Shown piece by piece: positions 2,311 to 35,466 of a DNA stretch of 64,000 nt. The stretch spans positions 12,233-76,232 of IMG/VR virus record IMGVR_UViG_3300032288_003533, one strand, 5' to 3'. Below the pieces are notes generated by a model. It was given only the letters and a program-made list of their open reading frames with translations. It had not been told where the DNA came from and made no database searches. A program made the position numbers and the translations under genes. Origin of the DNA: a virus. How positions within the stretch are numbered: the first letter of the stretch is position 1; the number at the start of each line of letters is the position of its first letter.

Positions 2311-2732
2311 TGGTGGAGACGCAGGGAATTGAACCCTGGTCTTGCTCATAATTTAGTAAAAAGACTACATGTTTATTCCATAGATTCTGTATGGACACAT
2401 AAGACAGTTCATATTTTTCCATTTGTACTGCCAACTGTGGGGGGTTCACTTCCACTATTTGCATAGACTTACAGGTAGCACCCCAAACCAAAACCTTTGA
2501 TACAATAAGTAGTATCACACTATAAGGCTTCTGTTCCTAGGTTATATGCCCACCGACCCGGGGTTGTTATGACTACTAAGCCGCAACAACAGCATCTTCA
2601 CGTACTAGACCTAAAGTTGCTAAAGTTTCTAAAGTGTTGCCAGTTAAAGGCTTGAACCAGTTGTTAATGAGGTTAATTCAGCCCCAACATGCCTTCTTAC
2701 CCAATCCACGCCAATCGATACCTTTCGTCCCC
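2311..2732 (-). ncRNA. ssrA: tmRNA (422 nt); tag (A)GNTLETLATLGLVREDAVVAA**
   Basis: 5' GGGGACG pairs with 3' CGTCTCC-ACCA, giving the G3:U alanine identity pair. T-arm CAGGGTTCAATTCCCTG. Tag frame starts after TTTAACT at 2641 and ends in AA plus TAG TAG. Confidence 0.93.
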
Positions 2733-2799: not shown

Positions 2800-2892
2800 T
2801 GGTTTTTTCATTTTCTTTTAAAATAATTTGATTTGCTGTTTTGTGGATGCAATAATAATATTTAGTTATATTTATATATTAAAATATGAATT

Positions 2893-3459
2893 ATGGAAAA
2901 AGAAACATTAAAAAACATACTTGATTTTCTTAAACATAATGAGAATAGAAATATTCCATTTATGTGGAAATTAAAAAATAATGAACCATTCACAGATGAT
3001 GAATTACACATTAAAGGTGATTTGGTTTTAGAAGAATCAAATATAACATCCTTACCAGAAGGATTAAAAGTAGGGGGTAGTTTGAATTTAGCAAGTTGCA
3101 TAGATTTAAAATCATTACCAGACAATTTGAAAGTTGGTGAGAATTTGTCTTTATCTGAAACACGTTTTAGATTCTTACCAAAAGGCTTGGAAGTTGGGGG
3201 TAATTTGGATTTATATGCTTCACAAATAGACTCCTTACCAAAGGACTTGAAGGTTGGCGGGGATTTGAATATTGAAGGCACTTACATAGAATTATTACCA
3301 AGTGGCTTACAAGTTGGTGGTGATTTATATTTGAATGATAGTGATTTGCATCACAGCATAGATTATGATGATAGTGATGAATTAAGGGATATTGTAAAAA
3401 AAATGGTTGAACCTGGTTTTATTAAAGGTGAGGTAATTTTTGATGAGTATGATGATTGA
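2893..3459 (+). CDS. Capped LRR-like repeat protein A1 (5 repeats)
   Basis: MEKETLK N-cap, xxLPxGLxVGGxLxL repeats, MVEPGFIKG C-cap. Confidence 0.85.
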   Translation: MEKETLKNILDFLKHNENRNIPFMWKLKNNEPFTDDELHIKGDLVLEESNITSLPEGLKVGGSLNLASCIDLKSLPDNLKVGENLSLSETRFRFLPKGLEVGGNLDLYASQIDSLPKDLKVGGDLNIEGTYIELLPSGLQVGGDLYLNDSDLHHSIDYDDSDELRDIVKKMVEPGFIKGEVIFDEYDD

Positions 3460-3476
3460 TTTAAATTAAATATATT

Positions 3477-4022
3477 ATGGAAAAAGAAACAATAAAAAAC
3501 ATATTTGAATTTATTGAAAGAAAAGATAATAGAAAAATTCCATTTATGTGGAAATTAAAAAATAATGAACCAATAACAGAAGATGATTTGATTGTTAATG
3601 GTGATTTGGATTTGAGACCTAGTAGCATAGATTACATAGATATAGAATCATTACCAGAAGGATTAAAAGTTTCTGGTTGTTTAAATCTTATGGGTTCAGA
3701 TATGAAACTTTTACCAAAAGGCTTGGAAGTTGGTGGGTATTTGGATTTAAGTTATTCACTTATAAACTCATTACCAGAAGGTTTAAAAGTTGGTGGGAGT
3801 TTATCTTTATTTGATTGTGCATATATGACTTCACTGCCAGAAGGCTTGAAGGTTGGGGGTAATTTAGATTTAGGGGCTACAAATATAACATCATTACCAA
3901 GAGGGTTAAAAGTTGAGGGTTATATAGAGTTGAATGGTACAAAATTAACAGATTACTCAGATGATGAATTAAGAAAAATGGTCAAACCTGGATATATAAA
4001 AGGAAGAATAATTAAATTTTAA
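3477..4022 (+). CDS. Capped LRR-like repeat protein A2 (5 repeats)
   Basis: Same cap/repeat/cap architecture. Confidence 0.85.
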   Translation: MEKETIKNIFEFIERKDNRKIPFMWKLKNNEPITEDDLIVNGDLDLRPSSIDYIDIESLPEGLKVSGCLNLMGSDMKLLPKGLEVGGYLDLSYSLINSLPEGLKVGGSLSLFDCAYMTSLPEGLKVGGNLDLGATNITSLPRGLKVEGYIELNGTKLTDYSDDELRKMVKPGYIKGRIIKF

Positions 4023-4025
4023 TTA

Positions 4026-4505
4026 ATGGAAAAAGAAACACTAAAAAAGATATTTGATTTTCTTGAAAAGAATGATAATAAAAGAAAACCACTTATGTGG
4101 AAATTAAAAAACAATATACCAATAACAGAAAAAGATGATTTGATTGTTAAAGGTAGTTTGGATTTATCTAGTTCAAACATAACCTCACTACCAAAAGGTT
4201 TGGAAGTTAAAGGTGGTTTAAGTTTATATGAATCAGAAATAATCTCCTTACCAGAAGGCTTGAAGGTTGGGGGTGATTTAGATTTAAGAAATTCATATAT
4301 AGAAAGTTTACCAGAAGGATTGGAAGTTGGGGATGAATTGGATTTAGCATATACATACATAACATCATTACCAAAAGGCTTAAAAGTTGGGGGGCTTTTG
4401 ATTATAATTGAGAGTGATTTATTAAAATATTCTGATGAAGAAATAAGAAAAATGATTGAACCTGGGTATATTAAAAAGAAAATAGTTAGAGAATATTATA
4501 GATAA
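4026..4505 (+). CDS. Capped LRR-like repeat protein A3 (4 repeats)
   Basis: Same cap/repeat/cap architecture. Confidence 0.85.
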   Translation: MEKETLKKIFDFLEKNDNKRKPLMWKLKNNIPITEKDDLIVKGSLDLSSSNITSLPKGLEVKGGLSLYESEIISLPEGLKVGGDLDLRNSYIESLPEGLEVGDELDLAYTYITSLPKGLKVGGLLIIIESDLLKYSDEEIRKMIEPGYIKKKIVREYYR

Positions 4506-15849: not shown

Positions 15850-17706
15850 ATGAATAATAATAATCAAAATTTAACAATTTGGCAAAGGTTATCTGCAACT
15901 TTTGGACCAAATTCATTATTAAATCAAGACATCCCAACTTATAAGTTTGATAAAAAAGAACTTTTAAGAACTCAAAACAAACTTGATTATGAAAGGGAAA
16001 AATTACAAGCACAACAATCATTTTATTTATCAAATCAATGGGCAAAGATTGATAATCATTTATATACGCAAGCCACATATTATGAGCCAACAAGATTAGC
16101 ATCAATATATGATTTTGAAAGTATGGAATATACCCCAGAGATTGGTGCAGCATTAGATATATATGCTGAAGAATCCACAACAACTGATGAGGATGGGCAT
16201 ATGTTACAAATATATTCTGAATCAAAAAGAATAAAATCAGTATTAACTGATTTGTTCAATAATGTTTTGGACATAAATACATCATTACCAATGTGGACTA
16301 GAAATACTTGTAAGTTTGGAGATAATTTTATTTATTTAAAATTAGATCCAGAAAAAGGAATTGTTGGGGCAAACCAATTGCCAAATATTGAAATAGAAAG
16401 ATTAGAACCAGGTAGTTCTGAAAAATCACCAAATTATGGGGAAATGTCATCTGAAAACAATTCTTTAAAATTTAAATGGAAAAACAAACAAATGGAATTT
16501 CAACCTTGGGAAATTGCACATTTTAGAATATTGGGGGATGATAGAAAATTACCATATGGAACATCATTGTTAGAAAAAGCAAGACGTATTTGGAAACAAC
16601 TTTTATTATCAGAAGATGCTATGTTGATATATAGAACATCAAGAGCGCCAGAACGTAGAGTATTTAAAGTTTTTGTTGGTAATATGGATGATAATGATGT
16701 TGAGGCATATGTACAACGTGTTGCAAATAAATTCAAACGTGAGCAAATTGTTGATAGTAAAACAGGTAATGTTGATATGAGGTTTAATCAAATGGCTGTG
16801 GATCAAGATTATTTCATACCAGTAAGAGACCCTGGTCAAGTTAGTCCTATTGAAACTTTACCTGGTGGAACAAATCTTGGTGAAGTTGCAGATATTGAGT
16901 ATATCCAAAAAAAATTGGTTACAGCATTGAGAATACCAAAAACATTCTTGGGTTTTGAAGATGTTGCTGGTGAAGGAAAAACTTTAGCATTACAAGATAT
17001 TAGATTTGCAAGAACAATAAATAGAATTCAAAAATGTATGTTAGCTGAATTAAACAAAATAGCAATTGTGCATTTGTTTATATTAGGTTTTGAGGATGAA
17101 TTATCTAATTTCACACTAGGGTTAACAAATCCATCAACTCAATCAGATTTATTGAAAATAGATTTATGGGAGTCAAAAATTAGATTATATAAAGAAGCAA
17201 CAGCTGATACTGGTTCAGGTATTGCGCCAACTTCAATTACTTGGGCTAAAAAACATATATTTGGTTGGTCTGATGAAGATATTAGGTTAGATTTACAACA
17301 ACAAAGGGTTGAAAGGGCAGCAGCTGAAGAATTAAAACAAACAGCACTTGTTATCAAGAAAACAGGTTTATTTGATAATATTGATAAATTATATGGTTCA
17401 GTATCTGGTGCAACACCAAGTAATCAACCAACCCCACCACCAACAGATGGAATGGATATGGGTGGACTAGATATGGGTGGACTAGATATGGGAACCCCAC
17501 CACCTGCACCAGCAGGAGAACCCCCAATTGAAGGAGGTGAAACACCCCCACCAGGAAGTGAGGTAACACCAGAATCAAGAATAAAAAATTTAAACATATT
17601 ACTTGAAAGTAATAAATTTAATGGTGTTAATTATGTTCCTTTAGGTAAGGGTCAAAAATCTTTGAGTGATTTGGAAAAAGAACTAAAAAAGTTATTAGGT
17701 TCATAA
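15850..17706 (+). CDS. Portal protein (T4 gp20-like)
   Basis: EDAMLIYRTSRAPERRVF, DYFIP..IETLPGG.NLGE..DIEY; follows terL. Confidence 0.93.
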   Translation: MNNNNQNLTIWQRLSATFGPNSLLNQDIPTYKFDKKELLRTQNKLDYEREKLQAQQSFYLSNQWAKIDNHLYTQATYYEPTRLASIYDFESMEYTPEIGAALDIYAEESTTTDEDGHMLQIYSESKRIKSVLTDLFNNVLDINTSLPMWTRNTCKFGDNFIYLKLDPEKGIVGANQLPNIEIERLEPGSSEKSPNYGEMSSENNSLKFKWKNKQMEFQPWEIAHFRILGDDRKLPYGTSLLEKARRIWKQLLLSEDAMLIYRTSRAPERRVFKVFVGNMDDNDVEAYVQRVANKFKREQIVDSKTGNVDMRFNQMAVDQDYFIPVRDPGQVSPIETLPGGTNLGEVADIEYIQKKLVTALRIPKTFLGFEDVAGEGKTLALQDIRFARTINRIQKCMLAELNKIAIVHLFILGFEDELSNFTLGLTNPSTQSDLLKIDLWESKIRLYKEATADTGSGIAPTSITWAKKHIFGWSDEDIRLDLQQQRVERAAAEELKQTALVIKKTGLFDNIDKLYGSVSGATPSNQPTPPPTDGMDMGGLDMGGLDMGTPPPAPAGEPPIEGGETPPPGSEVTPESRIKNLNILLESNKFNGVNYVPLGKGQKSLSDLEKELKKLLGS

Positions 17707-18969: not shown

Positions 18970-19671
18970 ATGAATAGTTTAAGAATACTAGAAGCAAATG
19001 AAATTGGTCATGGAATATTAATTGAGGCAGATGCTGGGTGGATTAATCCCAAAGACCAATTAAATATTAATTTAATACAAGAAAACAAGAAGTTAGATTA
19101 TAAGAACCCTTTTGAATTTTATGCTGTATTGCAAAAGCATGATGTACCAAATAGAAATGGTAGAACATACCCTGAAAAAATATTAAAAAGGGAGGCTGAA
19201 AGATACAAAAAAATTATTGAAAAGGGTTTATCTACTTCTGAATTAAATCACCCCGAATCATCCTTAATTGACTTAGATAGAGTTGCTCACTTAATAACAG
19301 ATATTTGGTGGGATAATAATATACTAATGGGCAAATTATTGTTATTAACTTCTCCTGGCTTCCATGAGAGGGGTATTGTATCAACCAAGGGTGATGTTGC
19401 CGCAAATCTAATGAGGCAAGGAGTAAGCCTAGGAATCAGTTCTAGGGGGGTTGGATCACTTAAAAAAGTTGGGGAGAAAAATGAGGTTCAAGATGATTTT
19501 GAATTGATTTGTTTTGATTTGGTTTCATCGCCATCAACGCCTGGGGCATACCTATTCTCAAATAAGGAAGATAGGCATAAGTATGATGAGAAATTGGAAG
19601 AAGAAAAGAAAATTGACCCATCAAATAATATATTAAAATTAATGAATAAACTTGATAGTTATTTAAAATGA
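18970..19671 (+). CDS. Prohead core protease (T4 gp21-like)
   Basis: NRNGRTY, ELNHP, LGISSRGVGS, FDLVSSPSTPGA. Confidence 0.93.
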   Translation: MNSLRILEANEIGHGILIEADAGWINPKDQLNINLIQENKKLDYKNPFEFYAVLQKHDVPNRNGRTYPEKILKREAERYKKIIEKGLSTSELNHPESSLIDLDRVAHLITDIWWDNNILMGKLLLLTSPGFHERGIVSTKGDVAANLMRQGVSLGISSRGVGSLKKVGEKNEVQDDFELICFDLVSSPSTPGAYLFSNKEDRHKYDEKLEEEKKIDPSNNILKLMNKLDSYLK

Positions 19672-20978
19672 AAAAAGAAACAATAAGAAAAATAATTGAT
19701 TTTATTGAAAATCAAGAAAAAAAAGCACCAACAATTAAAGGTTCTTTCTTATGGAAACTTGTGGTTCAGGAACCATTAACAAAAGAAGAGTTAAATCATA
19801 AAGGTAATTTGGATTTGACACATTCAACAATAACACAATTACCAAAAGGATTGAAAGTTGGGGGATATTTAAATTTAGGAGCAACAGAAATAGAATTTTT
19901 ACCAGAAGGATTGGAAGTTGGAGGTGGTTTATCTTTAGCATTTTCAAATATAAAATCCTTACCAAAAGGCTTGAAAGTTAGGGGGGATTTGAATTTAGAT
20001 AATACAAAAATAACTTCATTACCAGAAGGATTGAAAGTTGGGGGTGTTATATATGCAACAGATTCTAATCTACTTAATTTATTAGAAATACCAAAAAACA
20101 TAGAAACTGAAGGAATTATAACTAACACCAAATTATTACTTAATCCAAATTTAAAAATAAATAGGGGTTTGAATTTATCAAATTCAAAAATAACATCCTT
20201 ACCAAAAGGATTAAAAGTTAATGGTAATTTGATATTGAGTATTTCAAAAATAACAGAATTACCAAAAGGTTTGGAAGTTGGAGGTGATTTGGACTTAAAT
20301 AATTCAAAAATAACCTCATTACCAGAAGGATTGAAAGTTGGAGGTATGATTTATGCAAATATGTTTAATTTAGTAGAAATACCAAAAAATATAGAAACTA
20401 TAGGAATTATAACTAACACCAATGTACTACTTTCAAGTTTAACAATAAAAAATAACTTGTATTTAGCAGGTTCAAAAATAACCTCATTACCAAAAGGCTT
20501 GAAAGTTTATGGGAATATGAGTTTAGGGCAGAGTAAAATAAAAACATTACCAGAAGGGTTAGAAGTTGGTGGTTGGCTAAATATTTCTGATACTATGATA
20601 AGAACATTACCAAAAGGATTAAAAGTTGGTGGTTCTCTGGTTATATCTTATACAAGGATAGGAAAACTACCAAAAGGATTAAAAGTTGGGGGTATTATCT
20701 ATGCAGATAAAACTTATCTATCTAATATAGATGAAATACCAAAAGATGTAATAACTAGTGGAATTTTAACTCACAACAAATTAATAATTAATCCAAATTT
20801 ACCAATAAATAATGACTTAGATTTATCTAAGTCAACAATAAATTCATTACCAAAAGGATTAAAAGTTAATGGTAATTTAAATATTAAGAAATCAAGATTG
20901 GCAGTACATTCAGACAATGGTTTATTAGAAATGATTGGGGATGATGGCTATATAAAAGGTTCAATAATTAGATATTAA
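19668..20978 (+). CDS. Capped LRR-like repeat protein B1 (about 12 canonical repeats plus 3 variant modules)
   Basis: ATGA overlap with the protease stop; caps and repeats as in the family. Confidence 0.85.
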   Translation: MKKETIRKIIDFIENQEKKAPTIKGSFLWKLVVQEPLTKEELNHKGNLDLTHSTITQLPKGLKVGGYLNLGATEIEFLPEGLEVGGGLSLAFSNIKSLPKGLKVRGDLNLDNTKITSLPEGLKVGGVIYATDSNLLNLLEIPKNIETEGIITNTKLLLNPNLKINRGLNLSNSKITSLPKGLKVNGNLILSISKITELPKGLEVGGDLDLNNSKITSLPEGLKVGGMIYANMFNLVEIPKNIETIGIITNTNVLLSSLTIKNNLYLAGSKITSLPKGLKVYGNMSLGQSKIKTLPEGLEVGGWLNISDTMIRTLPKGLKVGGSLVISYTRIGKLPKGLKVGGIIYADKTYLSNIDEIPKDVITSGILTHNKLIINPNLPINNDLDLSKSTINSLPKGLKVNGNLNIKKSRLAVHSDNGLLEMIGDDGYIKGSIIRY

Positions 20979-21379
20979 TGGAAATAGCAACATTAAAAAA
21001 CATATTTAATTTCCTTGAAGGAAGTGAAAAAAAGTTCTCCATAAAATGGAAAATGATGAATAAAATCCCCTTTACTAAAGAACAATTACACGTCAAAGGT
21101 GATTTGGATTTACAAGGGGAAGACATACAACAATTGCCAGATGGGCTATATGTTAAACGTAATTTATTGTTAAATGCCACACCAATAAAAAAATTGCCAA
21201 AAGGTTTAAGAGTTGGTGGCAATTTGGAATTACAAGATTGTGAAAATTTAAAATCCCTACCAAAAGATTTAAAAGTTCGTGGGGGTATATGGCTTGCTGG
21301 TACACCATTAGGAAGAATGTCAGATGAGAAAATATTAAACATAGTAAAACCAGATGGTTATATAGGTAAAATATATTAA
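20978..21379 (+). CDS. Capped LRR-like repeat protein B2 (3 repeats)
   Basis: Family architecture. Confidence 0.85.
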   Translation: MEIATLKNIFNFLEGSEKKFSIKWKMMNKIPFTKEQLHVKGDLDLQGEDIQQLPDGLYVKRNLLLNATPIKKLPKGLRVGGNLELQDCENLKSLPKDLKVRGGIWLAGTPLGRMSDEKILNIVKPDGYIGKIY

Positions 21380-21380
21380 A

Positions 21381-21971
21381 ATGAAAGAAGAAACATTAGG
21401 AAAGATATTTGAATTTATCAAAGAAAACAGCAAACAAAATTTACCATTATTTTGGAAAATGAAAAATAATATACCATTAACAGAAGAAGATTTGACTGTT
21501 AAAGGTGATTTAAATTTACATAATTCAAAAATAACATCCTTACCAGATGGATTAAAAGTTGAGGGTGAATTGGATTTATCATATTCAAATATAAAATCAT
21601 TACCAAAAGGTTTAATAGTTAATAGCCACTTAATATTAGAAGAATCAGAAATACGTTCTTTACCAGAAGGTTTAAAAGTTGGGGGCAATTTAATGTTAGC
21701 AAGTTGTGAATATATTTTTTCATTACCAAAAGGATTAAAAGTTGGACATATTTTAGATTTAACAAAATCAAATATAAAAACATTACCAGAAGGATTGGAG
21801 GTTGGACATAGTTTATGGCTATTTGGATGTTGGGGTTTAACCTCATTACCAAAAGGCTTGAAAGTTGGGGGTGACTTAAATATTTATAAAACAAAATTAG
21901 AAGAATATTCAGATGATGAATTAAGAGAAATGATTAAACCAGGATTTATAAAAGGTTCAATAAATAGATAA
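21381..21971 (+). CDS. Capped LRR-like repeat protein B3 (6 repeats)
   Basis: Family architecture. Confidence 0.85.
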   Translation: MKEETLGKIFEFIKENSKQNLPLFWKMKNNIPLTEEDLTVKGDLNLHNSKITSLPDGLKVEGELDLSYSNIKSLPKGLIVNSHLILEESEIRSLPEGLKVGGNLMLASCEYIFSLPKGLKVGHILDLTKSNIKTLPEGLEVGHSLWLFGCWGLTSLPKGLKVGGDLNIYKTKLEEYSDDELREMIKPGFIKGSINR

Positions 21972-21973
21972 TA

Positions 21974-22564
21974 ATGGAAAAAGAAACATTAAAAAGAATA
22001 TTTGATTTTATTGAAGGGAATGAAGGGCATAAAAAACCATTATTTTGGAAATTGAAAAATAATATACCATTAACAGAAGAAGATTTAACTGTTAAAGGTG
22101 ATTTAAATTTAGAAAATTCAAAAATAACATCCTTACCAGATGGTTTGAAAGTTGAGGGTGATTTGATGTTAACCTTTTCAAAAATAACCTCATTACCAGA
22201 TAATTTACAAGTTGGGGGTCATTTAAACATAGTTGGTTGTGATGCCATAAACTCATTACCAAAAGGATTAAAAGTTGGCGACAGTATTCAATTATCCCCA
22301 AAACGAATAGTTTCCATTGGGGAAGGATTGTTTGTTGGTGGGGATTTAAATTTATTTAATAGCCAAATAAAATCATTACCCCAAGGAGTTAAAATTGGGG
22401 GGGAGTTAGGTTTATCCTTTACAAAACTAGAAACATTACCAAAAGGTTTGATAGTTAAAGGTGGTTTGGAGATTGCTGGAACACCATTAGAAAACTATTC
22501 AAATAAAGAATTAAGAGATATGGTTAAACCTGGTGTTATAAAAGGTCCAATAATTAGAGATTAG
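21974..22564 (+). CDS. Capped LRR-like repeat protein B4 (6 repeats)
   Basis: Family architecture. Confidence 0.85.
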   Translation: MEKETLKRIFDFIEGNEGHKKPLFWKLKNNIPLTEEDLTVKGDLNLENSKITSLPDGLKVEGDLMLTFSKITSLPDNLQVGGHLNIVGCDAINSLPKGLKVGDSIQLSPKRIVSIGEGLFVGGDLNLFNSQIKSLPQGVKIGGELGLSFTKLETLPKGLIVKGGLEIAGTPLENYSNKELRDMVKPGVIKGPIIRD

Positions 22565-22566
22565 AA

Positions 22567-23790
22567 ATGAAAATAGAAACATTAAAAAGAATATTTGATT
22601 TTATTGAAAATAAAGAAAACAAAAAACATAAAGCCAAAGCAACTTTAAAGTGGAAGTTGTTTTTTAATGAACCATTAACAAAAGATGATTTGATTGTTAA
22701 TGGAAATTTGGATTTGGCAAATTCAAAAATAACATCTTTACCTGAAGGATTGGAAATTAAGGGTACTTTGGATTTAAGAAATTGCACAAGTTTAACATCA
22801 TTACCACAAGGATTGAAAGTTGGGGGTAATTTATATTTAATTAGTTCAAAAATAACATCTTTGCCTGAAGGATTGGAAATTAAGGGTACTTTGGATTTAA
22901 GAAATTGCACAAGTTTAACATCATTACCAGAAGGATTAGAAGTTGGTGGTGATTTAAATTTATCTAATTGCACAAGTTTAACATCATTACCACAAGGATT
23001 GAAAGTTAAAGGAGATTTAGATTTATATGGTTGTAAAAACTTAAAATACTTACCAATAGGATTGATAGTTGTTGGTGATATAAATTTACAATACTCAACA
23101 ATAACAACCTTACCAGAAGGCTTAAAAGTTGGTGGTGATTTGAATTTATATAATTGCAAAAGTTTAAAATCCCTACCAAAAGTATTGAAAGTTGGTGGTT
23201 TTTTAAATTTAAACAAATGCACAAGTTTAACATCATTACCAGAAGGATTAGAAGTTGGGGGTACATTATATTTAAAGAATTGTTCCAAATTAAAATCATT
23301 ACCAATAGGGTTGAAAATTGGGGAGGCTTTGCAATTGAATGATACAAATATAACTACTCTCCCAAAAGATTTGAAATTTGTTACTGATTTGGATTTATCA
23401 GGTTCTAAAATAATGTCATTACCAGATAATTTACATGTTAGGGGTAGGTTAGATTTGGCTTTTTGCGAAAATTTAACTTCATTACCAACTGGATTAAAAG
23501 TTGATGGTGATTTAATATTAACCTTTGCAAAAATAACCTCATTACCAGATAATTTACAAGTTGGCAAATATTTGGATTTGGGTAATACAAAAATAACTTC
23601 ACTACCTAAAGGGTTAAAAGTTGGTAGTAGATTGAATATAAGTGGTACACAAATAACCTCATTACCAAAAGGACTAAAAGTTGGAGAAAATTTACTTATA
23701 GTGAACACAAATTTAAAAAAATATACTGATGAGGAATTAAGAGAAATGGTTAAGCCTGGATTTATAAAAGGTGAAATATATAGAGGATAA
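22567..23790 (+). CDS. Capped LRR-like repeat protein B5 (16 repeats)
   Basis: Family architecture; internal duplication with a 123-nt period. Confidence 0.85.
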   Translation: MKIETLKRIFDFIENKENKKHKAKATLKWKLFFNEPLTKDDLIVNGNLDLANSKITSLPEGLEIKGTLDLRNCTSLTSLPQGLKVGGNLYLISSKITSLPEGLEIKGTLDLRNCTSLTSLPEGLEVGGDLNLSNCTSLTSLPQGLKVKGDLDLYGCKNLKYLPIGLIVVGDINLQYSTITTLPEGLKVGGDLNLYNCKSLKSLPKVLKVGGFLNLNKCTSLTSLPEGLEVGGTLYLKNCSKLKSLPIGLKIGEALQLNDTNITTLPKDLKFVTDLDLSGSKIMSLPDNLHVRGRLDLAFCENLTSLPTGLKVDGDLILTFAKITSLPDNLQVGKYLDLGNTKITSLPKGLKVGSRLNISGTQITSLPKGLKVGENLLIVNTNLKKYTDEELREMVKPGFIKGEIYRG

Positions 23791-25915: not shown

Positions 25916-27697
25916 ATGGGAGCATTATTAGAATCAGGTCTTGTTGGTAATATTGGGTTGAAACACCTTAAAGTTATCAAAGAGGACACAATTAACAAAT
26001 GGAATAAATTAGGATTCCTTGAAGGCTTAAAAGGTCATTTAAAAGAGAATGTTGCACAGTTGTATGAAAACCAAGCATCATATCTTATTAATGAAGCAGC
26101 TAGTACATCTGATACTGGTGCATTTGAAACAGTTGTTTTCCCAATTGTTAGGAGAGTATTCTCTAAATTATTGGCAAATGATATTGTTTCAGTACAAGCA
26201 ATGAATTTACCTATTGGTAAATTATTCTTCTTTGTACCTCAAATTCAAGAAAGAACTAATACTACTGAACATTGGGCACCTTATGGTTCACCTAATGCAG
26301 CAACTGGTCAAACACCATCTTCTGGTTATGATTCAAACACATATAAAAATCTATATGATAGATTTTATGAAGGTAGCGAGCCTGGTTTAAATCCAGAAGG
26401 TCTTTATGACTATTCAAAAGGGCAATATTCTGCTATAACATCAAATTTAACTACTGTTGCTTGGTCTAATGGTGAATTAATTGCTTCTGCTTATTCACAG
26501 ACTGACTATAGAAAAGTATTAGTTGTTATGTCTGGATTCACAGGTGATGGTGCAGGTAAATTAATTGGCCCAGATGGTCATCCAATGGATAATGAAAGTT
26601 TCTTAGCTGGTTTAGTAGTTTTAGGAGTATCAACAAATTCAACAACTTCAGGTAGTACAAATACTCCATATTTATTTAGAGTTGTTACTCAAAAATATGG
26701 AAAAGGTATTGTGCAATATGGATCACAAACATCACATACATTTGGTAGTTATACTGATGGTGGTGGTACTTATAATAATATTTGTGATGCTGAAGGTAAA
26801 ATATATTTAGAGATTGATTTACAAACTCCAGCAACTGTGGGTGCAAATTCTTTAGATGGTTATACTGGATCAACATTTACATCTTCAACAGCAGCAGGTA
26901 ATGCGCTAAAATGTGTTTATAGAGTTTATAAAAATCTTGAATTTGAAGATAAAATTGGTGAGGTTTCTTTTGATTTACAATCTGTAACTGTTTCAGTAAC
27001 TGAACGTAAATTAAGAGCACAATGGTCACCAGAAATGGCACAAGATGTTGCTGCATTCCATAACATTGATGCTGAAGCAGAATTAACTGCTTTATTATCA
27101 GAGCAAATTGCAGCTGAAATTGATAGAGAAATTTTAAGAGACCTTAGAAAAGGTGCTGCTTGGAACTTACGTTGGGATTACAATGGTTGGAAGAGATTGG
27201 GTACAAATGCTATCCCTTACACACAGAAAGACTGGAATCAAACATTAATCACAACTATTAACCAAGTATCAGCACAAATCCACAAATCAACATTGAGAGG
27301 TGGAGCAAACTGGATTGTGGTTTCTTCTGAAGTTAGTGCAGTTTTTGATGATTTAGAATACTTCCATGTATCAAATGCATCTCCTGAACAAGACCAATAT
27401 AATATGGGTATTGAAAGAGTTGGTACATTAGCTGGACGTTACCAAGTTTATAGAGATCCTTATTTCCCAGCAAATACAATTTTGTTAGGACACAAAGGAA
27501 CATCTTTACTTGATACTGGATATATTTATGCACCATATGTACCTCTGCAATTAACACCAACTATGTATAATCCATTTAACTTTACACCAATCAAAGGTAT
27601 TATGACACGTTATGCTAAGAAAATGGTTAATAATCGTTTCTATGGTAGAATTACTGTTGATGGTGTTAGAACATTTGACTTACAAGAGTTGAGATAA
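25916..27697 (+). CDS. Major capsid protein (T4 gp23-like)
   Basis: PIVRRVF..DIVSVQAM, RKLRAQWSPEMAQD..AFHNIDAEAEL, YAPYVPL, GIMTRY. Confidence 0.96.
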   Translation: MGALLESGLVGNIGLKHLKVIKEDTINKWNKLGFLEGLKGHLKENVAQLYENQASYLINEAASTSDTGAFETVVFPIVRRVFSKLLANDIVSVQAMNLPIGKLFFFVPQIQERTNTTEHWAPYGSPNAATGQTPSSGYDSNTYKNLYDRFYEGSEPGLNPEGLYDYSKGQYSAITSNLTTVAWSNGELIASAYSQTDYRKVLVVMSGFTGDGAGKLIGPDGHPMDNESFLAGLVVLGVSTNSTTSGSTNTPYLFRVVTQKYGKGIVQYGSQTSHTFGSYTDGGGTYNNICDAEGKIYLEIDLQTPATVGANSLDGYTGSTFTSSTAAGNALKCVYRVYKNLEFEDKIGEVSFDLQSVTVSVTERKLRAQWSPEMAQDVAAFHNIDAEAELTALLSEQIAAEIDREILRDLRKGAAWNLRWDYNGWKRLGTNAIPYTQKDWNQTLITTINQVSAQIHKSTLRGGANWIVVSSEVSAVFDDLEYFHVSNASPEQDQYNMGIERVGTLAGRYQVYRDPYFPANTILLGHKGTSLLDTGYIYAPYVPLQLTPTMYNPFNFTPIKGIMTRYAKKMVNNRFYGRITVDGVRTFDLQELR

Positions 27698-29887: not shown

Positions 29888-30436
29888 TCATTCCCATTCA
29901 GGATCCTCATCTAGTATATCGCCTTTAATATATCCAGGCTTAACCATTTTTTTTAATTGTTCTTCAGTGTATTTAGTTAACTTTGTGTAAGTTATATTTA
30001 ATCCATCATCAACTTTCAATCCTTTTGGTAATGAGTTTAATTTGTAACAATGATTTAAATATAATGTACCATTAACTTTTAACCCATCTGGTAATGATTC
30101 AAGTTGTTCGCAACCATATAAATCCAAATCACCACTAACTTTCAATCCTTTTGGTAATGATGTTATATTTGAATATTGTAAAGTTAAATCACCCCCAACT
30201 TCCAATCCTTCTGGTAATGAAGTTATTTTTGAATAGTCTAAATTCAAATTGCCACTAACTTTCAATCCTTCTGGTAATGAAGTTATTTTAAAATTTGATA
30301 AATCCAAATCATCATCAATGTTTAATTCATCTTTTGTTAATGGTGAACCATTTGTTATTTTCCATAAAAATGGAATTTTTGCACCATCTAACTTTTCAAG
30401 AAAATTAAATATATTCTTTAGTGTTTCTTTTTCCAT
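29888..30436 (-). CDS. Capped LRR-like repeat protein C3 (5 repeats)
   Basis: Family architecture. Confidence 0.85.
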   Translation of the reverse strand: MEKETLKNIFNFLEKLDGAKIPFLWKITNGSPLTKDELNIDDDLDLSNFKITSLPEGLKVSGNLNLDYSKITSLPEGLEVGGDLTLQYSNITSLPKGLKVSGDLDLYGCEQLESLPDGLKVNGTLYLNHCYKLNSLPKGLKVDDGLNITYTKLTKYTEEQLKKMVKPGYIKGDILDEDPEWE

Positions 30437-30966
30437 TATCTAATTATATTATTTATATATCCAGGATTAACCATTTGCCTTAATTCCTCAGTTGAATATT
30501 TTGTTAATGGTGTATTTTTAATAAACAAACGACCCCCAACTTTCAACCCTTTTGGTAATGATGTTATATTTGAATGTTTCAAATCCAAAAATCTCCCAAC
30601 TTTTAATCCTTCTGGTAGTGAAGTTATATTTGCACAATCAAATAAAGATAAACTCCCACCAACTTTCAACCCTTTTGGTAATGATGTTATATTTGAATAT
30701 CCCAAATCCAAAAACCCCCCAACTTCTAATCCTTCTGGTAATGATTGTATATTTTTACAACCATATAAACTTAAATTAGCCTCAACTTTCAATCCATCTG
30801 GTAATGATTCAATATCTGTTTTTGTTAAATCCAAATCCCCTTTAACAATCAAATCATCTTTTTCTGTTATTGGTATATTGTTTTGTAATTTCCACATAAG
30901 TGGTGCATTATGCTCACCATTTTCTTCAAGAAAATCAAATATCTTTTTTAGTGTTTCTTTTTCCAT
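30436..30966 (-). CDS. Capped LRR-like repeat protein C2 (5 repeats)
   Basis: Family architecture; mosaic of segments found in A2, A3 and D2. Confidence 0.85.
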   Translation of the reverse strand: MEKETLKKIFDFLEENGEHNAPLMWKLQNNIPITEKDDLIVKGDLDLTKTDIESLPDGLKVEANLSLYGCKNIQSLPEGLEVGGFLDLGYSNITSLPKGLKVGGSLSLFDCANITSLPEGLKVGRFLDLKHSNITSLPKGLKVGGRLFIKNTPLTKYSTEELRQMVNPGYINNIIR

Positions 30967-32177: not shown

Positions 32178-32717
32178 TTATATCCTAATTATTCCTTGTA
32201 TATAACCAGGCTTAACCATTTCTCTTAATTCTTCATTAGTAAATTTGGCTAAATTATGTTTATTATCTATATTTAAATATCCTTTAACTATTAGTCCTTT
32301 TGGTAATCTATTTATTGGTGTGTTCATTATTATTAACCAAGTATTAATCACTAACCCTTCTGGTAGTGAAGTTACTTTTGAATTTTGTAAATATAAAGAA
32401 GTACCAATTTTAATATCATCTGGTATTTTTTTTATATTAGAGTATGATAAATCCAAAATAACACCAACTTTCAATCCTTTTGGTAATTCTTCTAATTTTG
32501 AAAATCTAGTAATCATATTGCCTTTAACTTCCAAATTATCTGGCAATGATTTTAAATTTGAATCTGATAAATCCAAATCACCATTAACAACTAAATCTTC
32601 TTTTGTTAGGGGTTCACCAAAATTTAATTTCCAAATAAAGTTATCTCTATTTTTATGTTTTTTGTTTTCATTCTTCTGAAGAAAATCAAATATTTTTTTT
32701 ATTGTTTCTTTTTCCAT
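32178..32717 (-). CDS. Capped LRR-like repeat protein D6 (5 repeats)
   Basis: Family architecture. Confidence 0.85.
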   Translation of the reverse strand: MEKETIKKIFDFLQKNENKKHKNRDNFIWKLNFGEPLTKEDLVVNGDLDLSDSNLKSLPDNLEVKGNMITRFSKLEELPKGLKVGVILDLSYSNIKKIPDDIKIGTSLYLQNSKVTSLPEGLVINTWLIIMNTPINRLPKGLIVKGYLNIDNKHNLAKFTNEELREMVKPGYIQGIIRI

Positions 32718-33325
32718 TATCTAATTATTTGCTCCTTTATAAATCCAGGTTTAACCATATTTCTTAATTCTTCATCAGAAAATTTTACTAATGGTGATCC
32801 ACTTATAATTAAATTCCCCCTAACTTTCAACCCTTTTGGTAATGATGTTAAACTTGTGCAATTTTCTAAATACAAATCACGACCAACTTCCAATCCTTCT
32901 GGCAAAGATGTTAAACTTGTGCAATTTTCTAAATCTAAATTATGCGCAACTTTCAATCCTTTTGGTAAAGATATTAAATTTGTTGAATTTTCTAAATATA
33001 AAGATGCTCCAAGTTCTAATCCTCTTGGCAGTGAAATTAAATCTTCACAACCTTCTAAATCTAAACGACCCCCAACTTTTAAGTTATCAGGTAATGATTT
33101 AATAGATGAATAATTTAAAATCAAATAACCACCAACTTTCAACCCATCTGGTAATGAGGTTATTTTTGAATATGATAAATCCAAATTACCTTTTACATTT
33201 AACTCTTCTTCTGTTATTGGTTCATCAAATTTTAATTTCCAAATAATGCTATCCCTATCTTTATGTTTTTTATTTTCTTCCTTTTCAAGAAAATCAAGTA
33301 TATTTTTTATTGTTTCTTTTTCCAT
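32717..33325 (-). CDS. Capped LRR-like repeat protein D5 (6 repeats)
   Basis: Family architecture. Confidence 0.85.
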   Translation of the reverse strand: MEKETIKNILDFLEKEENKKHKDRDSIIWKLKFDEPITEEELNVKGNLDLSYSKITSLPDGLKVGGYLILNYSSIKSLPDNLKVGGRLDLEGCEDLISLPRGLELGASLYLENSTNLISLPKGLKVAHNLDLENCTSLTSLPEGLEVGRDLYLENCTSLTSLPKGLKVRGNLIISGSPLVKFSDEELRNMVKPGFIKEQIIR

Positions 33326-33804
33326 TATCTTTCTATATTTCCTTTTATATAACCATCTGGTTTGACCATTTCTCTTATTTTTTCATCTGAAAGTTTTGCT
33401 AATGGAGTGTTTACAATATTTAAATCACATTTAACTTTTAAACCTTTTGGTAATGTTTCTATATCTGAATATGATAAATCCAGATTACGACCAACATATA
33501 AATCACCTGGCAAGGATTTAAAACGGGTCCATTCAAAATTCAAATCACCCTCAACAAATAATTTTTCTGGGAATGTTTTTAAACTTGAGAACCGAAAATC
33601 AGCATCTCCTATAACTTTTAACCCTTTTGGTAAATGTTGTATATTTAAGCCAGATATATCCAAATCACCTCTAACAATTAAATCTTCTTTTATTGATGGG
33701 TCATTAAACATAAATTTCCACCTTAAAGTTCCTTTGTCTTTATGTTTTTTATTATCTTCTTTTTCAATAAATTCAAGTATATTTTTTAGTGTTTCTATTT
33801 CCAT
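33325..33804 (-). CDS. Capped LRR-like repeat protein D4 (4 repeats)
   Basis: Family architecture. Confidence 0.85.
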   Translation of the reverse strand: MEIETLKNILEFIEKEDNKKHKDKGTLRWKFMFNDPSIKEDLIVRGDLDISGLNIQHLPKGLKVIGDADFRFSSLKTFPEKLFVEGDLNFEWTRFKSLPGDLYVGRNLDLSYSDIETLPKGLKVKCDLNIVNTPLAKLSDEKIREMVKPDGYIKGNIER

Positions 33805-34274
33805 TATCTAATTATATTTCCTTTAAATGAACCATTATTTAAATTTTTATTTCTTCTTATTTCATCATCTGTATATTTTTTGGCAAGGAAGGATTCTCCT
33901 ATATATAAATTACCACCAACATATAAATTTTTTGGAATTTCTTCAATATCTGAATGTCTGAAAAATAAATCACCCCCAACATATAAATTGTCTGGTAATG
34001 ATTCTATATTTGTATGTGATAAGTTAAAACTATCCTTAACATATAACCCTTCTGGTAATGATTCTATTAGTGAACCCAATAGCCACAATTTACCTTCAAC
34101 TCTCATCCCATCAGGTAATGAGGTTACAGTTGTAAATTCCAAATTCAAATTGCCTTTTATATTTAAATCCTCTTTTGTTAGTTCATTATTTACCCATTTC
34201 CATAAAAATGGTGTTTTGATATCATCATTTTCTTCAAGGAATTCAAATATTTTTTTTATTGTTTCTTTTTCCAT
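33804..34274 (-). CDS. Capped LRR-like repeat protein D3 (4 repeats, divergent C-cap)
   Basis: Family architecture. Confidence 0.85.
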   Translation of the reverse strand: MEKETIKKIFEFLEENDDIKTPFLWKWVNNELTKEDLNIKGNLNLEFTTVTSLPDGMRVEGKLWLLGSLIESLPEGLYVKDSFNLSHTNIESLPDNLYVGGDLFFRHSDIEEIPKNLYVGGNLYIGESFLAKKYTDDEIRRNKNLNNGSFKGNIIR

Positions 34275-34981
34275 TATCTAACTATTTTTCCTTTTATAAA
34301 TCCAGGTTGAATCATCTTTCTTAATCTATAATTACTAATTTCATCTAAATGGGAAAGATTCAACATTATAGATCCATAAACTTTCAACCCTTTTGGTAAT
34401 GAGGTTAAATCTGTTAGTCTTAAATCCAAATCTCCCCCAACTTTCAATCCTTCAGGTAATGATTGTATATTTTTACAACCAAATAACACCAAATCTTTCC
34501 TAACTTCAAGTCCTTCTGGTAATGAAGTTATTTTTGTATTATTTAAAACTAAATGCCCTCCAACTTTCAATCCTTCTGGTAATGAAGTTATTTTTGTATC
34601 ATTTAAATACAAATCCCTACCAACTTTCAATCCTTTTGGTAGGAAGGTTATATCTGTATTAGATGACAACAAATTACCACCAACTTCCAATCCTTCTGGT
34701 AATGAAGTTATTTTTGTTGACCCTAAATTTAAATCACCACCAACTTTCAAACCTTCTGGCAATGAGGTTATTTTTGATTTTCTTACATCAAAATTACCAC
34801 CAACTTTTAATCCTTCTGGTAATGAGGTTATTGTTGCTCCATAAAACCACAAATTACCTATAACATCTAAATCTTCTTTGGTTATTGGCTTATTATTTAA
34901 TATTTTCCATTTAAATGGTGCTCTATGTTCTCCTTTCTCTTCAAGGAATTCAAATATTCTTTTTAATGTTTCTTTTTCCAT
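34274..34981 (-). CDS. Capped LRR-like repeat protein D2 (8 repeats)
   Basis: Family architecture; clear 60-nt DNA periodicity. Confidence 0.85.
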   Translation of the reverse strand: MEKETLKRIFEFLEEKGEHRAPFKWKILNNKPITKEDLDVIGNLWFYGATITSLPEGLKVGGNFDVRKSKITSLPEGLKVGGDLNLGSTKITSLPEGLEVGGNLLSSNTDITFLPKGLKVGRDLYLNDTKITSLPEGLKVGGHLVLNNTKITSLPEGLEVRKDLVLFGCKNIQSLPEGLKVGGDLDLRLTDLTSLPKGLKVYGSIMLNLSHLDEISNYRLRKMIQPGFIKGKIVR

Positions 34982-35466
34982 TATCTAACTATTTTTCCTT
35001 TTATATAACCATCTGAACCAATCATCTTTAATAAAACAGAATCTGAAAGTTTTGCCAATGGTGTTTTTATAAGATATAAATTTTCTTCAACTTTCAACCC
35101 TTCTGGTAATGATGTTAAACTTGTGCAATTTTCTAAATATAAATAATCCCCAACTTCCAATCCTTCTGGCAATGATGTTAAACTTGTGCAATTTTCTAAA
35201 GATAACTTCCCCCCAACTTTTAACCCTTTTGGTAAGGATGTTAAATTTGTGCAATTATATAAATTTAAATAATCTTTAATTTCCAATCCTTCTGGTAATG
35301 ATGTTATTTTTAAATTTGCCAAATTTAAATTATCTACAATCAAATCATCTTTTGTTAATGGTTCATTGAAAAATAATTTCCATCTTAAAGTTCCCTTGTT
35401 TTTATTTTTTTTGTTTTCTTTATCTTCAAGAAAATCAAATATTTTTTTTAATGTTTTATTTTCCAT
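34981..35466 (-). CDS. Capped LRR-like repeat protein D1 (4 repeats)
   Basis: Family architecture. Confidence 0.85.
   Translation of the reverse strand: MENKTLKKIFDFLEDKENKKNKNKGTLRWKLFFNEPLTKDDLIVDNLNLANLKITSLPEGLEIKDYLNLYNCTNLTSLPKGLKVGGKLSLENCTSLTSLPEGLEVGDYLYLENCTSLTSLPEGLKVEENLYLIKTPLAKLSDSVLLKMIGSDGYIKGKIVR

What the first reader, a model, noticed from the sequence alone, without database searches (positions are those of the whole stretch)
30436..30966. DNA-level mosaicism: gene C2 is a patchwork of segments found in distant, oppositely oriented paralogues
Seen: the first 42 nt of C2 are identical to A3 (4026). Reverse-complemented 30903-30839 matches A3 4089-4153 at 64/65 nt. 30666-30631 is identical over 36 nt to A2 3786-3821, including the variable SLSLFDCA residues. 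Its GCKNIQSLP module matches D2 (about 34455-34481). Other cases: D1 and D5 share LENCTSLTSLPEGLEVG, B5 and D1 share WKLFFNEPLTKDDLIV and ITSLPEGLEIK, B4 and B5 share LTFxKITSLPDNLQVG, and B1 and D1 share the MIGxDGYIKG cap. Inference: recent module shuffling or gene conversion, with the conserved TTACCAGAAGG..AAAGTTGG scaffold as crossover homology. This would be an RT-independent way to generate diversity.
Basis: partly seen in the sequence, partly recalled or inferred. Interest (0 to 1): 0.85.

Follow-up and report, generated by a model that had tools for sequence, protein, structure and literature searches.

The report
Recombinant LRR gene in jumbo phage
One of 17 small leucine-rich-repeat genes on an uncultured T4-like jumbo phage fragment is a true recombinant assembled from pieces that sit in different gene arrays in related phages; the mechanism is ordinary homologous recombination at conserved sequence, not a new diversity-generating system.

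Summary
The sequence matches are real. C2 (30436-30966, minus strand) shares 42/42 and 64/65 nt with A3, 36/36 nt with A2, and a 27-nt exact run with D2.

The decisive evidence comes from related phage contigs.
- C2 nt 1-359 is 96.9% identical to an A-array gene of relatives ("A2b"); the remainder is only 69%.
- C2 nt 390-531 is 141/142 identical to the gene in the C2 slot of relatives ("C2s"), whose N-cap is only 68% identical.
- Informative sites switch sharply at nt 124-126 (Fisher p 1.7e-15).
- The same chimera occurs in independent assemblies, so it is not an assembly artefact.

One junction lies in the conserved repeat scaffold (CCAGAAGG), one at the N-cap/first-repeat boundary, and a two-repeat length difference fits unequal crossover.

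Weaker points:
- The D2 match is not exceptional (rank 39 of 325).
- N-cap versus C-cap tree incongruence is not significant against a simulated null.
- The direction of transfer is unresolved, and so is whether exchange happened within one genome or between phages.
- No reverse transcriptase was found.

Nothing suggests programmed, high-frequency shuffling. Earlier follow-ups in this scan reached the same conclusion on related phage DNA. I class it as a new member of a known kind.

The parts
30436..30966 (-). Gene C2, 176 aa. It has a helical N-cap, five LRR units (R0-R4, of 19-21 aa) and a C-cap.
   Evidence: ORF. Segmentation. AlphaFold2 model with mean pLDDT 92.7 shows an LRR solenoid with helical caps.
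30608..30966 (-). 5' block (C2 nt 1-359), shared with the A-array gene 'A2b' of related phages (L003/L004:6001-6534).
   Evidence: 345/356 identical (96.9%, plus one 3-nt gap), against 119/172 (69.2%) for nt 360-531.
30841..30966 (-). N-cap coding region (nt 1-126). It is the A3 type, 114/126 identical to A3. Its relatives are all in A arrays.
   Evidence: The N-caps of C-array neighbours are different.
30925..30966 (-). 42 nt identical to the start of A3 (4026-4067).
   Evidence: The orthologue in L001 differs here at 4 positions, whereas A3 orthologues do not.
30904..30924 (-). 21-nt central N-cap patch (ENGEHNA). It is only 10/21 identical to A3, but the same patch recurs in three different gene contexts in relatives.
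30839..30903 (-). 65 nt matching A3 4089-4153 at 64/65.
30841..30843 (-). Breakpoint 1 (C2 nt 124-126), at the N-cap/first-repeat boundary. Upstream of it C2 resembles A2b; downstream it resembles C2s.
   Evidence: Informative sites are 26 A-type vs 1 S-type before the breakpoint and 5 vs 51 after it (Fisher p 1.7e-15).
30578..30607 (-). Breakpoint zone 2 (nt 360-389), starting inside the conserved ...CCAGAAGG/ATTAAAAGTTGG repeat scaffold. Identity to A2b ends at nt 359, and identity to C2s is complete from nt 390.
30436..30577 (-). 3' block (nt 390-531: end of R4, C-cap and stop), shared with the C-slot gene 'C2s' of relatives (L009:6001-6405, L001:2317-2721).
   Evidence: 141/142 identical (99.3%), against 62/91 (68.1%) for nt 31-124.
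30661..30720 (-). Repeat R2. It is 55/60 identical to R4 (30538-30597). This pair is the substrate for the 123-nt (two-repeat) length difference from C2s.
   Evidence: C2s nt 264-303 aligns to both R2 and R4.
30631..30666 (-). 36 nt identical to A2 3786-3821, running from the end of R2 into R3 and including the variable SLSLFDCA residues.
   Evidence: The whole R3 unit is 57/63 identical to A2 R3, rank 3 of 325.
30737..30763 (-). 27-nt exact run shared with D2 34455-34481 (GCKNIQSLP module). It is real but at background level.
   Evidence: The unit-level identity of 49/63 ranks 39 of 325.
4026..4505 (+). Gene A3, a paralogue on the opposite strand that shares the N-cap type with C2.
3477..4022 (+). 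Gene A2. It is collinear with C2 over the whole length (75% nt identity). Its 3' part is 95% identical to the 3' part of A2b in relatives.
21443..21568 (+). B3 nt 63-188. This tract is 120/126 identical to B4 (22036-22161), while the rest of the pair is about 64% identical. It is a second mosaic pair, and both partners are inside the window.

Best explanation
C2 belongs to a phage multigene family of small capped leucine-rich-repeat proteins. The window holds 17 copies in four head-to-tail arrays.

Family members share stretches of nearly identical DNA: the start of the gene and the N-cap, the repeat scaffold (...TCATTACCAGAAGGATTAAAAGTTGG...) and the C-cap. Ordinary homologous recombination uses these stretches. 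It produces three kinds of change:
- non-reciprocal exchange (gene conversion) between genes, including genes in arrays on opposite strands;
- unequal crossover that changes the number of repeats;
- gain and loss of whole genes.

C2 is one product of this process. It combines an A-array-type N-cap, a body shared with the A-array gene A2b, and a C-array-type 3' end and C-cap.

Shown: the breakpoints, where they fall, that they are reproduced in independent assemblies, and that repeat number and gene number vary among relatives.

Inferred: that the exchange was non-reciprocal, that the N-cap moved from the A array to the C array, and that the variation serves binding diversity. The most variable residues are the x positions of xLxLxx, which in LRR proteins form the concave face.

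These are events on an evolutionary, population-level timescale, not a programmed switch.
For: Breakpoints in C2:
- Against A2b, identity is 96.9% for nt 1-359 and 69.2% for nt 360-531.
- Against C2s, identity is 68.1% for nt 31-124 and 99.3% for nt 390-531.
- The breakpoint test gives Fisher p 1.7e-15.

Reproducibility:
- The full-length chimera is present in other assemblies: L001 at 510/531 nt and L002, and a 95%-identical protein on 3 contigs.

Within-window tests:
- The permutation test gives A3-C2 a global p <= 0.001 and A1-A2 a global p of 0.016.
- B3/B4 share a 126-nt tract at 95%, against about 64% elsewhere.

Family-wide pattern:
- Among 85 distinct family genes, 17 pairs are mosaic, defined as a segment of at least 100 nt at 95% or more with the rest below 80%.
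- The A array has 3 genes in the window and 6 in L003.
- The C2 slot holds C2s alone, C2s plus C2, or C2 alone in different contigs.

Non-reciprocal exchange:
- Array order and orientation are the same in the 113-kb relative G001. This argues against a simple reciprocal crossover between inverted arrays.

Variable positions:
- Per-position entropy peaks at repeat positions 3, 5, 7, 8 and 10.
Against: - Direction is unresolved. A2b is itself a patchwork of C2-like and A2-like tracts, and C2s could be a deletion derivative of a C2-like gene.
- The window contains no A2b, so for most of C2 the partner is not in the same genome. Exchange between co-infecting phages fits as well as exchange within one genome.
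- Strong codon bias explains part of the identity: P(same codon | same residue) is 0.82 in N-caps and 0.67-0.70 in repeats.
- The PHI test on the caps is not significant (p 0.15).
- N-cap versus C-cap tree incongruence is not significant against 300 simulations (p 0.41, 0.06 and 0.21).
- Small clusters of changes at variable codons have no donor among the sequences in hand.
Confidence: 0.85

Rival explanations
1. The exchange happened mainly between related phage genomes during co-infection, with pairing at non-allelic family members, rather than by gene conversion within one genome.
For: - The best partners of C2 (A2b and C2s) occur only in other contigs.
- C-array genes are 93-97% identical between the window and L001, while the nearby capsid-gene region is only about 83% identical. 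The genomes are therefore mosaics at a larger scale too.
- The 3' block is 99.3% identical to C2s, which is closer than typical orthologue pairs at 93-97%.
Against: - The window itself holds mosaic pairs whose two partners are in the same genome: A3/C2 N-cap, B3/B4 and A1/A2.
- The window's C2 matches A3 at nt 31-36, where its own orthologue in L001 differs.
- The two routes do not exclude each other. An A-array module ending up in a C-array gene needs a non-allelic event either way.
Confidence: 0.35
2. No recombination took place. The genes arose by whole-gene duplication and diverged, and the identical stretches reflect purifying selection combined with strong AT-biased codon usage.
For: - Codon bias is strong (0.82 and 0.67-0.70).
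- N-cap flanks are nearly invariant across genomes.
- The D2 module match is at background level.
- Cap-tree incongruence is not significant.
Against: - This cannot explain a step from 97% to 69% and from 68% to 99% identity within one gene pair at sharp boundaries (p 1.7e-15).
- It cannot explain 10/21 identity in a patch flanked by 106/107.
- It cannot explain the same N-cap patch appearing in three different gene bodies.
Confidence: 0.04
3. The mosaic is an assembly artefact: a metagenome assembler switched between paralogues at identical 30-46-nt stretches.
For: - The contig is a metagenome assembly.
- The paralogues share exact runs of up to 46 nt.
- Several chimeric protein variants are seen only on contigs of 0.7-2.3 kb (P0004, P0006, P0007, P0008, P0023). 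Exact-pattern scans did not find two of them (P0023-like and P0007-like) in viral contigs.
Against: - The whole C2 arrangement recurs, with its own point differences, in independent samples (L001, L002).
- The exact protein is on 4 contigs.
- C2 is flanked on both sides by C-array-specific genes, so an artefact would need two compensating switches.
Confidence: 0.02
4. This is a programmed, high-frequency cassette-shuffling system, in the manner of lamprey VLR assembly or bacterial antigenic variation, that diversifies the LRR binders within a phage population.
For: - The layout has conserved junctions, conserved scaffolds and many cassettes.
- Variable residues are concentrated on the predicted binding face.
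- Different haplotypes of the C2 slot occur in contigs whose sample numbers are adjacent (L001 and L014).
Against: - All 17 genes are complete ORFs; none is a silent partial cassette.
- The same chimera is stable across samples, at 96% nt identity with ordinary point differences.
- No dedicated enzyme was identified.
- No reverse transcriptase was found in four partial records.
- Differences between copies involve all four bases, not adenines only.
Confidence: 0.06

Closest known systems
Tandem LRR multigene families that evolve by unequal crossing-over and gene conversion, such as plant NLR/R-gene clusters (RPP8, PMC6771003)
   Same: - Arrays of paralogues with a conserved repeat scaffold.
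- Variable residues at the xLxLxx positions.
- Chimeric genes with sharp breakpoints.
- Variation in repeat number and gene number among haplotypes.
- Exchange between non-adjacent members.
   Different: - The genes are carried by a bacteriophage.
- They are very small (130-440 aa) and consist of an LRR domain with caps only.
- They are packed head to tail with overlapping stop and start codons.
- What they bind is unknown.
Shuffling of phage gene cassettes at short conserved sequences, as in T-even tail-fibre adhesin segments and the polymorphic internal-protein loci of T4-like phages (from my own knowledge, not checked in a paper here)
   Same: Short conserved DNA at gene starts and module boundaries serves as homology for recombination, which reassorts variable cassettes among related phages.
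   Different: Here the cassettes are LRR repeats and caps of a single large paralogous family. Whether the N-cap acts as a capsid-targeting leader was not tested.
Vibrio alginolyticus FlrP, a small periplasmic LRR protein bound to the rod of the polar flagellar motor (PDB 8z5u; bioRxiv 10.64898/2025.12.04.692373)
   Same: - It has the same 20-residue LRR subtype (LP.GL.V.G.L.L).
- A profile of the C2 subfamily matches it at E 2.1e-28.
- The model aligns to it at Z 17.0, rmsd 2.9 A, over 158 residues.
- It is of similar size, about 180-200 aa.
   Different: - FlrP is a single bacterial gene with a Sec signal peptide.
- The phage proteins start with a charged helical cap and show no hydrophobic leader.
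- The phage proteins come in dozens of recombining copies.
Lamprey variable lymphocyte receptors
   Same: Capped LRR binders are built from shuffled LRR modules by a gene-conversion-like process. VLR structures are among the fold matches.
   Different: VLR assembly is somatic and programmed, working from an incomplete germline gene and silent cassettes. Here all genes are complete, and the chimeras are inherited and stable.

Membership tests
Leucine-rich repeat proteins (bacterial 20-21-residue type, FlrP-like) | Tandem repeats with the LxxLxL...LP..L pattern | tested here: met
   The window's genes contain 57 units of 20 aa and 26 units of 21 aa. Their consensus sequences are GGxLxLxxSxIxSLPxGLKV and GGxLxLxxCxxLTSLPxGLKV.
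Leucine-rich repeat proteins (bacterial 20-21-residue type, FlrP-like) | Solenoid fold with one short beta-strand per repeat | tested here: met
   AlphaFold2 model with mean pLDDT 92.7 and pTM 0.84. All fold matches are LRR proteins, the top one being 8z5u_0 at Z 17.0. This is a prediction, not a solved structure.
Leucine-rich repeat proteins (bacterial 20-21-residue type, FlrP-like) | Sequence homology to a solved member | tested here: met
   Profile against PDB sequences: FlrP (8z5u_0) at E 2.1e-28, then SlrP, SspH1 and VLR. Pfam LRR models score only below their cut-offs for C2.
FlrP (flagellar rod-associated LRR protein) | Sec signal peptide and periplasmic location | tested here: not met
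   FlrP has a signal peptide, M1-A19. C2 begins MEKETLKKIFDFLEENGEH, which is charged and modelled as helix 3-15. This is read directly from the sequence; no signal-peptide predictor was run.
Gene conversion / ectopic homologous recombination in a multigene family | Discrete tracts of near identity bounded by divergent sequence in the same gene pair | tested here: met
   Identity steps from 96.9% to 69.2% (A2b) and from 68.1% to 99.3% (C2s); Fisher p 1.7e-15. B3/B4 show 95% against about 64%.
Gene conversion / ectopic homologous recombination in a multigene family | Breakpoints fall in stretches of shared homology | tested here: met
   The junction at nt 359/360 lies in the CCAGAAGG scaffold. 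The junction at nt 124-126 lies next to the conserved GATTTGGATTTA start of R0. The deletion end-points lie in the shared 3' halves of R2 and R4.
Gene conversion / ectopic homologous recombination in a multigene family | Non-reciprocal: donor retained and no rearrangement of the DNA between the partners | tested here: inconclusive
   Array order and orientation are conserved in G001. A3 is retained in the window. No A2b is present in the window's A array, so the donor of the main block cannot be placed in the same genome.
Diversity-generating retroelement | Reverse transcriptase near the variable genes | tested here: inconclusive
   PF00078 gave no match in G000-G003, while the controls matched. 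All four records are fragments, 8-36% complete.
Diversity-generating retroelement | Template/variable repeat pair differing only at adenines of the template | tested here: not met
   Differences between near-identical tracts involve all four bases, for example AGATT versus GAGGA and TT versus CA.
Programmed cassette assembly (VLR-like or antigenic-variation-like) | One incomplete or expression-site gene plus silent partial cassettes | tested here: not met
   All 17 family members are complete ORFs with a start codon, both caps and a stop codon.
Programmed cassette assembly (VLR-like or antigenic-variation-like) | High-frequency variants within one population | not testable with these tools

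The most novel reading that the evidence does not exclude
The conserved junctions, caps and repeat scaffold are maintained because they promote frequent exchange. On this reading the arrays work as a reverse-transcriptase-independent, recombination-driven generator of LRR binders within phage populations. It would be a phage counterpart of VLR or antigenic-variation systems, with new chimeras arising at measurable rates during infection.
Probability: 0.06. Interest if true: 0.85.

Novelty: new member of a known kind. Interest (0 to 1): 0.45.

Why it matters
It shows cleanly that a large, undescribed phage family of small LRR proteins evolves by exchange of modules and caps between arrays.
- About 2,300 protein clusters in metagenomes match C2, and every one of the 120 closest listed that carries a name is called hypothetical.
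- Among 50,697 GenBank phage records, only one phage, Edwardsiella phage Edno5 (held under two accessions), carries a homologue.

This pattern is what one expects of proteins under pressure to bind changing partners, such as host defences or surfaces. It also gives a natural map of which parts are interchangeable.

The recombination mechanism itself is familiar. The open and more interesting question is what the proteins bind.

Tried and rejected
- **Cap-tree incongruence.** A naive AU test rejected the swapped N-cap and C-cap trees (p 1.5e-8 and 1.4e-4). However, 300 simulations on a single shared tree gave equally large likelihood differences (p 0.41, 0.06 and 0.21 for the sum). This test is uninformative for caps this short and this saturated.
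- **PHI test on the caps.** Not significant (p 0.15).
- **Maximum run within the N-cap alone.** Borderline for A3/C2 (p 0.058). The clustering of mismatches was the informative statistic.
- **Four-gamete argument from metagenome proteins.** All combinations of N-cap and C-cap types appear among the 120 closest clusters. The critical rare combinations (P0004, P0006, P0007, P0008, P0023) sit on contigs of 0.7-2.3 kb. Exact-pattern scans did not find two of them (P0023-like and P0007-like) in viral contigs, although the control scan worked. I therefore do not rely on them.
- **Donors for small clusters of changed variable codons.** None was found among the sequences in hand.
- **T4 late-promoter motif TATAAATA.** It is enriched in the window (38 matches against 23 expected) but is not placed convincingly in front of the arrays.
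- **DNA search of the GenBank phage collection with the neighbouring structural genes.** No match.
- **PHROGs.** No family matched C2.

Full report
**Setting**

The window is 64 kb of a 76-kb IMG/VR viral contig that CheckV rates 24% complete, which implies a genome of roughly 300 kb. GC content is 27.6%. Terminase, portal and a T4-type major capsid protein are present. The nearest capsid proteins, at 42-46% identity, belong to an uncultured 484-kb phage, a Microcystis phage and Flavobacterium phages.

The window carries 17 complete paralogous genes in four arrays:
- A1-A3, 2893-4505, plus strand
- B1-B5, 19668-23790, plus strand
- C1-C3, 29888-31613, minus strand
- D1-D6, 32178-35466, minus strand

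Each gene encodes three parts:
- 3-16 LRR units of 20 aa (consensus GGxLxLxxSxIxSLPxGLKV) or 21 aa (with a Cys);
- a C-cap of about 34 residues.

Per-position entropy is highest at repeat positions 3, 5, 7, 8 and 10, the x positions of xLxLxx. An AlphaFold2 model of C2 (pLDDT 92.7) is an LRR solenoid with helical caps.

The closest solved relative is Vibrio FlrP, a periplasmic LRR protein on the rod of the polar flagellar motor. The profile match is E 2.1e-28 and the structural match is Z 17.0. Unlike FlrP, the phage proteins have no signal peptide.

The family is large but unnamed. About 2,306 protein clusters match C2 at E <= 1e-5, and every one of the 120 closest listed that carries a name is called hypothetical. 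Only one phage in GenBank, Edwardsiella phage Edno5 (held under two accessions), carries a homologue.

**The observation**

The two longest exact matches between any two of the 17 genes are both A3-C2, at 46 and 42 nt.

Several tests on the window alone put the A3/C2 match above chance:
- C2's N-cap is 114/126 identical to A3. Outside a 21-nt central patch it is 106/107; inside the patch it is 10/21.
- A GENECONV-style permutation gives A3-C2 a global p <= 0.001, A1-A2 0.016, B3-B4 0.05 and B5-D1 0.12.
- The A3/C2 mismatches are significantly clustered (p 5e-5).

Codon bias matters here. Residues that are the same use the same codon 82% of the time in N-caps and 67-70% of the time in repeats. 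The 32/32 identical codons between A3 and C2 are therefore significant only at p 1.6e-3.

At the level of single repeats:
- A2 R3/C2 R3 at 57/63 ranks 3 of 325.
- B4 R1/B5 R13 at 56/60 is the top of 1596.
- D1 R3/D5 R4 at 57/63 ranks 2 of 325.
- The D2 R6/C2 R1 unit at 49/63 ranks only 39 of 325, so that part of the claim is at background level.

**Decisive evidence from relatives**

A scan of IMG/VR returned 20 loci from related phages. Their non-array flanking genes match the window at about 80-92% nt identity, and the arrays differ in gene content. Three genes in these loci are informative:

1. *'A2b'*, an A-array gene (L003/L004:6001-6534).
   - It matches C2 at 345/356 (96.9%) over nt 1-359 and at 119/172 (69.2%) over nt 360-531.
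   - Its own 3' part is 95% identical to the window's A2.
2. *'C2s'*, the 134-aa gene that occupies the C2 slot in most relatives (L009:6001-6405; also L001:2317-2721).
   - Its identity to C2 is 30/30 over nt 1-30, 62/91 (68.1%) over nt 31-124, about 96% through R0-R2, and 141/142 (99.3%) over nt 390-531.
   - It lacks 123 nt, which is two repeats.
3. *The orthologue of C2* in L001 (2721-3251), which is 510/531 identical over the full length.

In the three-way comparison of C2, A2b and C2s, informative sites read A-type 26:1 before nt 124 and S-type 51:5 after it (Fisher p 1.7e-15).

The junctions fall as follows:
- One junction is at the N-cap/first-repeat boundary.
- The two-repeat difference fits unequal crossover between R2 and R4, which are 55/60 identical. 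C2s nt 264-303 aligns to both.

Three haplotypes of the slot exist: C2s alone (L009-L017), C2s plus C2 (L001), and C2 alone (the window).

**Not an artefact**

The chimera recurs in independent samples with its own point differences. It is in L001 and L002, the exact protein is on 4 contigs, and a 95%-identical protein is on 3 contigs. It is flanked on both sides by C-array genes.

**Breadth**

The pattern extends beyond C2:
- Among 85 distinct family genes from the window and relatives, 17 pairs have a segment of at least 100 nt at 95% or more identity while the rest is below 80%.
- Inside the window, B3 and B4 share nt 63-188 at 120/126, with about 64% identity elsewhere.
- A1's 3' half is 96.5% identical to that of a gene with a different 5' half.
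- The 27 nt that span C2's central patch (C2 nt 40-66) occur in three different gene bodies.
- A2b is itself a patchwork of C2-like and A2-like tracts.
- The A array has 3 genes in the window and 6 in L003.
- G001 carries a further array.

**Direction and place of exchange**

C2's N-cap type is otherwise found only in A-array genes, and its C-cap only in C-array genes. The simplest reading is therefore a C-array gene that acquired an A-type N-cap.

The window's C2 matches A3 at nt 31-36, where its L001 orthologue, A2b (L003) and C2s all differ. This hints at a small conversion specific to the window's lineage, but it rests on only 3-4 sites.

A and C arrays are inverted relative to each other, yet order and orientation are the same in G001. 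This favours non-reciprocal exchange.

The window lacks A2b, however. The C-array genes are also closer between the window and L001 (93-97%) than the capsid region is (about 83%). Exchange between co-infecting phages is therefore at least as plausible as exchange within one genome.

'Recent' cannot be inferred from the N-cap, because its flanks differ by only 0-1 of 107 nt between A3 orthologues in different genomes.

**Tests that did not help**

It is not significant against 300 simulations on one shared tree (p 0.41, 0.06 and 0.21 for the sum).
- PHI on the caps is not significant.
- Rare cap combinations that would complete a four-gamete argument exist only on very short contigs. Two of them (P0023-like and P0007-like) were sought by exact pattern in viral contigs and not found.
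- No reverse transcriptase was found in four partial records. Differences between copies are not adenine-specific.

**Verdict**

The mechanism is ordinary homologous recombination, meaning gene conversion and unequal crossover at conserved caps and repeat scaffold. It acts over evolutionary time in a population of related jumbo phages. There is no evidence for a programmed diversity generator.

Earlier follow-ups in this scan reached the same conclusion for related phage genomes (e1-5991907 and e1-5991916; e1-6004047 for the family and FlrP). This report adds a clean case with mapped breakpoints.

Noticed in passing
window 2311-2732 (-): Rfam finds a full-length tmRNA (RF00023, 87.1 bits, E 5e-34) just upstream of array A. 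ARAGORN reported no tRNA or tmRNA anywhere in the window.
   Followed up: partly
window 21443-21568 and 22036-22161 (+): The adjacent paralogues B3 and B4 share a 126-nt tract at 120/126, while the rest of the pair is about 64% identical. In relative G001 the B4 orthologue (L021:4158) carries the B3-type sequence over nt 1-188.
   Followed up: partly
L003 5393-8413 vs window 2893-4505: The A array holds 6 family genes in L003, including a 116-aa member with only two repeats, but 3 in the window. Gene number varies between close relatives.
   Followed up: partly
G001 (113-kb relative) 95.7-101.2 kb: This relative has a further array of the same family far from arrays A-D. A complete genome probably carries well over 17 members.
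   Followed up: no
protein P0006 (135 aa, contig 1406 nt): This protein is identical to the window's C2 except that two repeats are missing. It is either a very recent unequal crossover or a repeat collapse in a short assembly.
   Followed up: no
window 2862-3281, 32245-32679, 32655-33113, 33362-33811, 33880-34281: Long open frames (133-152 aa) run antisense to the LRR genes and carry a repeating ...PTFNPFGN... motif. They are probably a by-product of the repeat and codon composition rather than genes.
   Followed up: no
Edwardsiella phage Edno5 MH898687.1 27170-27652: This is the only phage in the GenBank collection with a homologue of the family. It is a single hypothetical protein, 49% identical over the repeats.
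   Followed up: no
window, whole: The T4 late-promoter-like octamer TATAAATA occurs 38 times against 23 expected, and no shuffle reached 38. Its placement relative to the arrays was not convincing.
   Followed up: no
window 19668-23790 (+): Array B lies inside the head-gene block, between the portal gene (15850-17706) and the major capsid gene (25916-27697). This would fit virion-associated or internal head proteins, but that was not tested.
   Followed up: no
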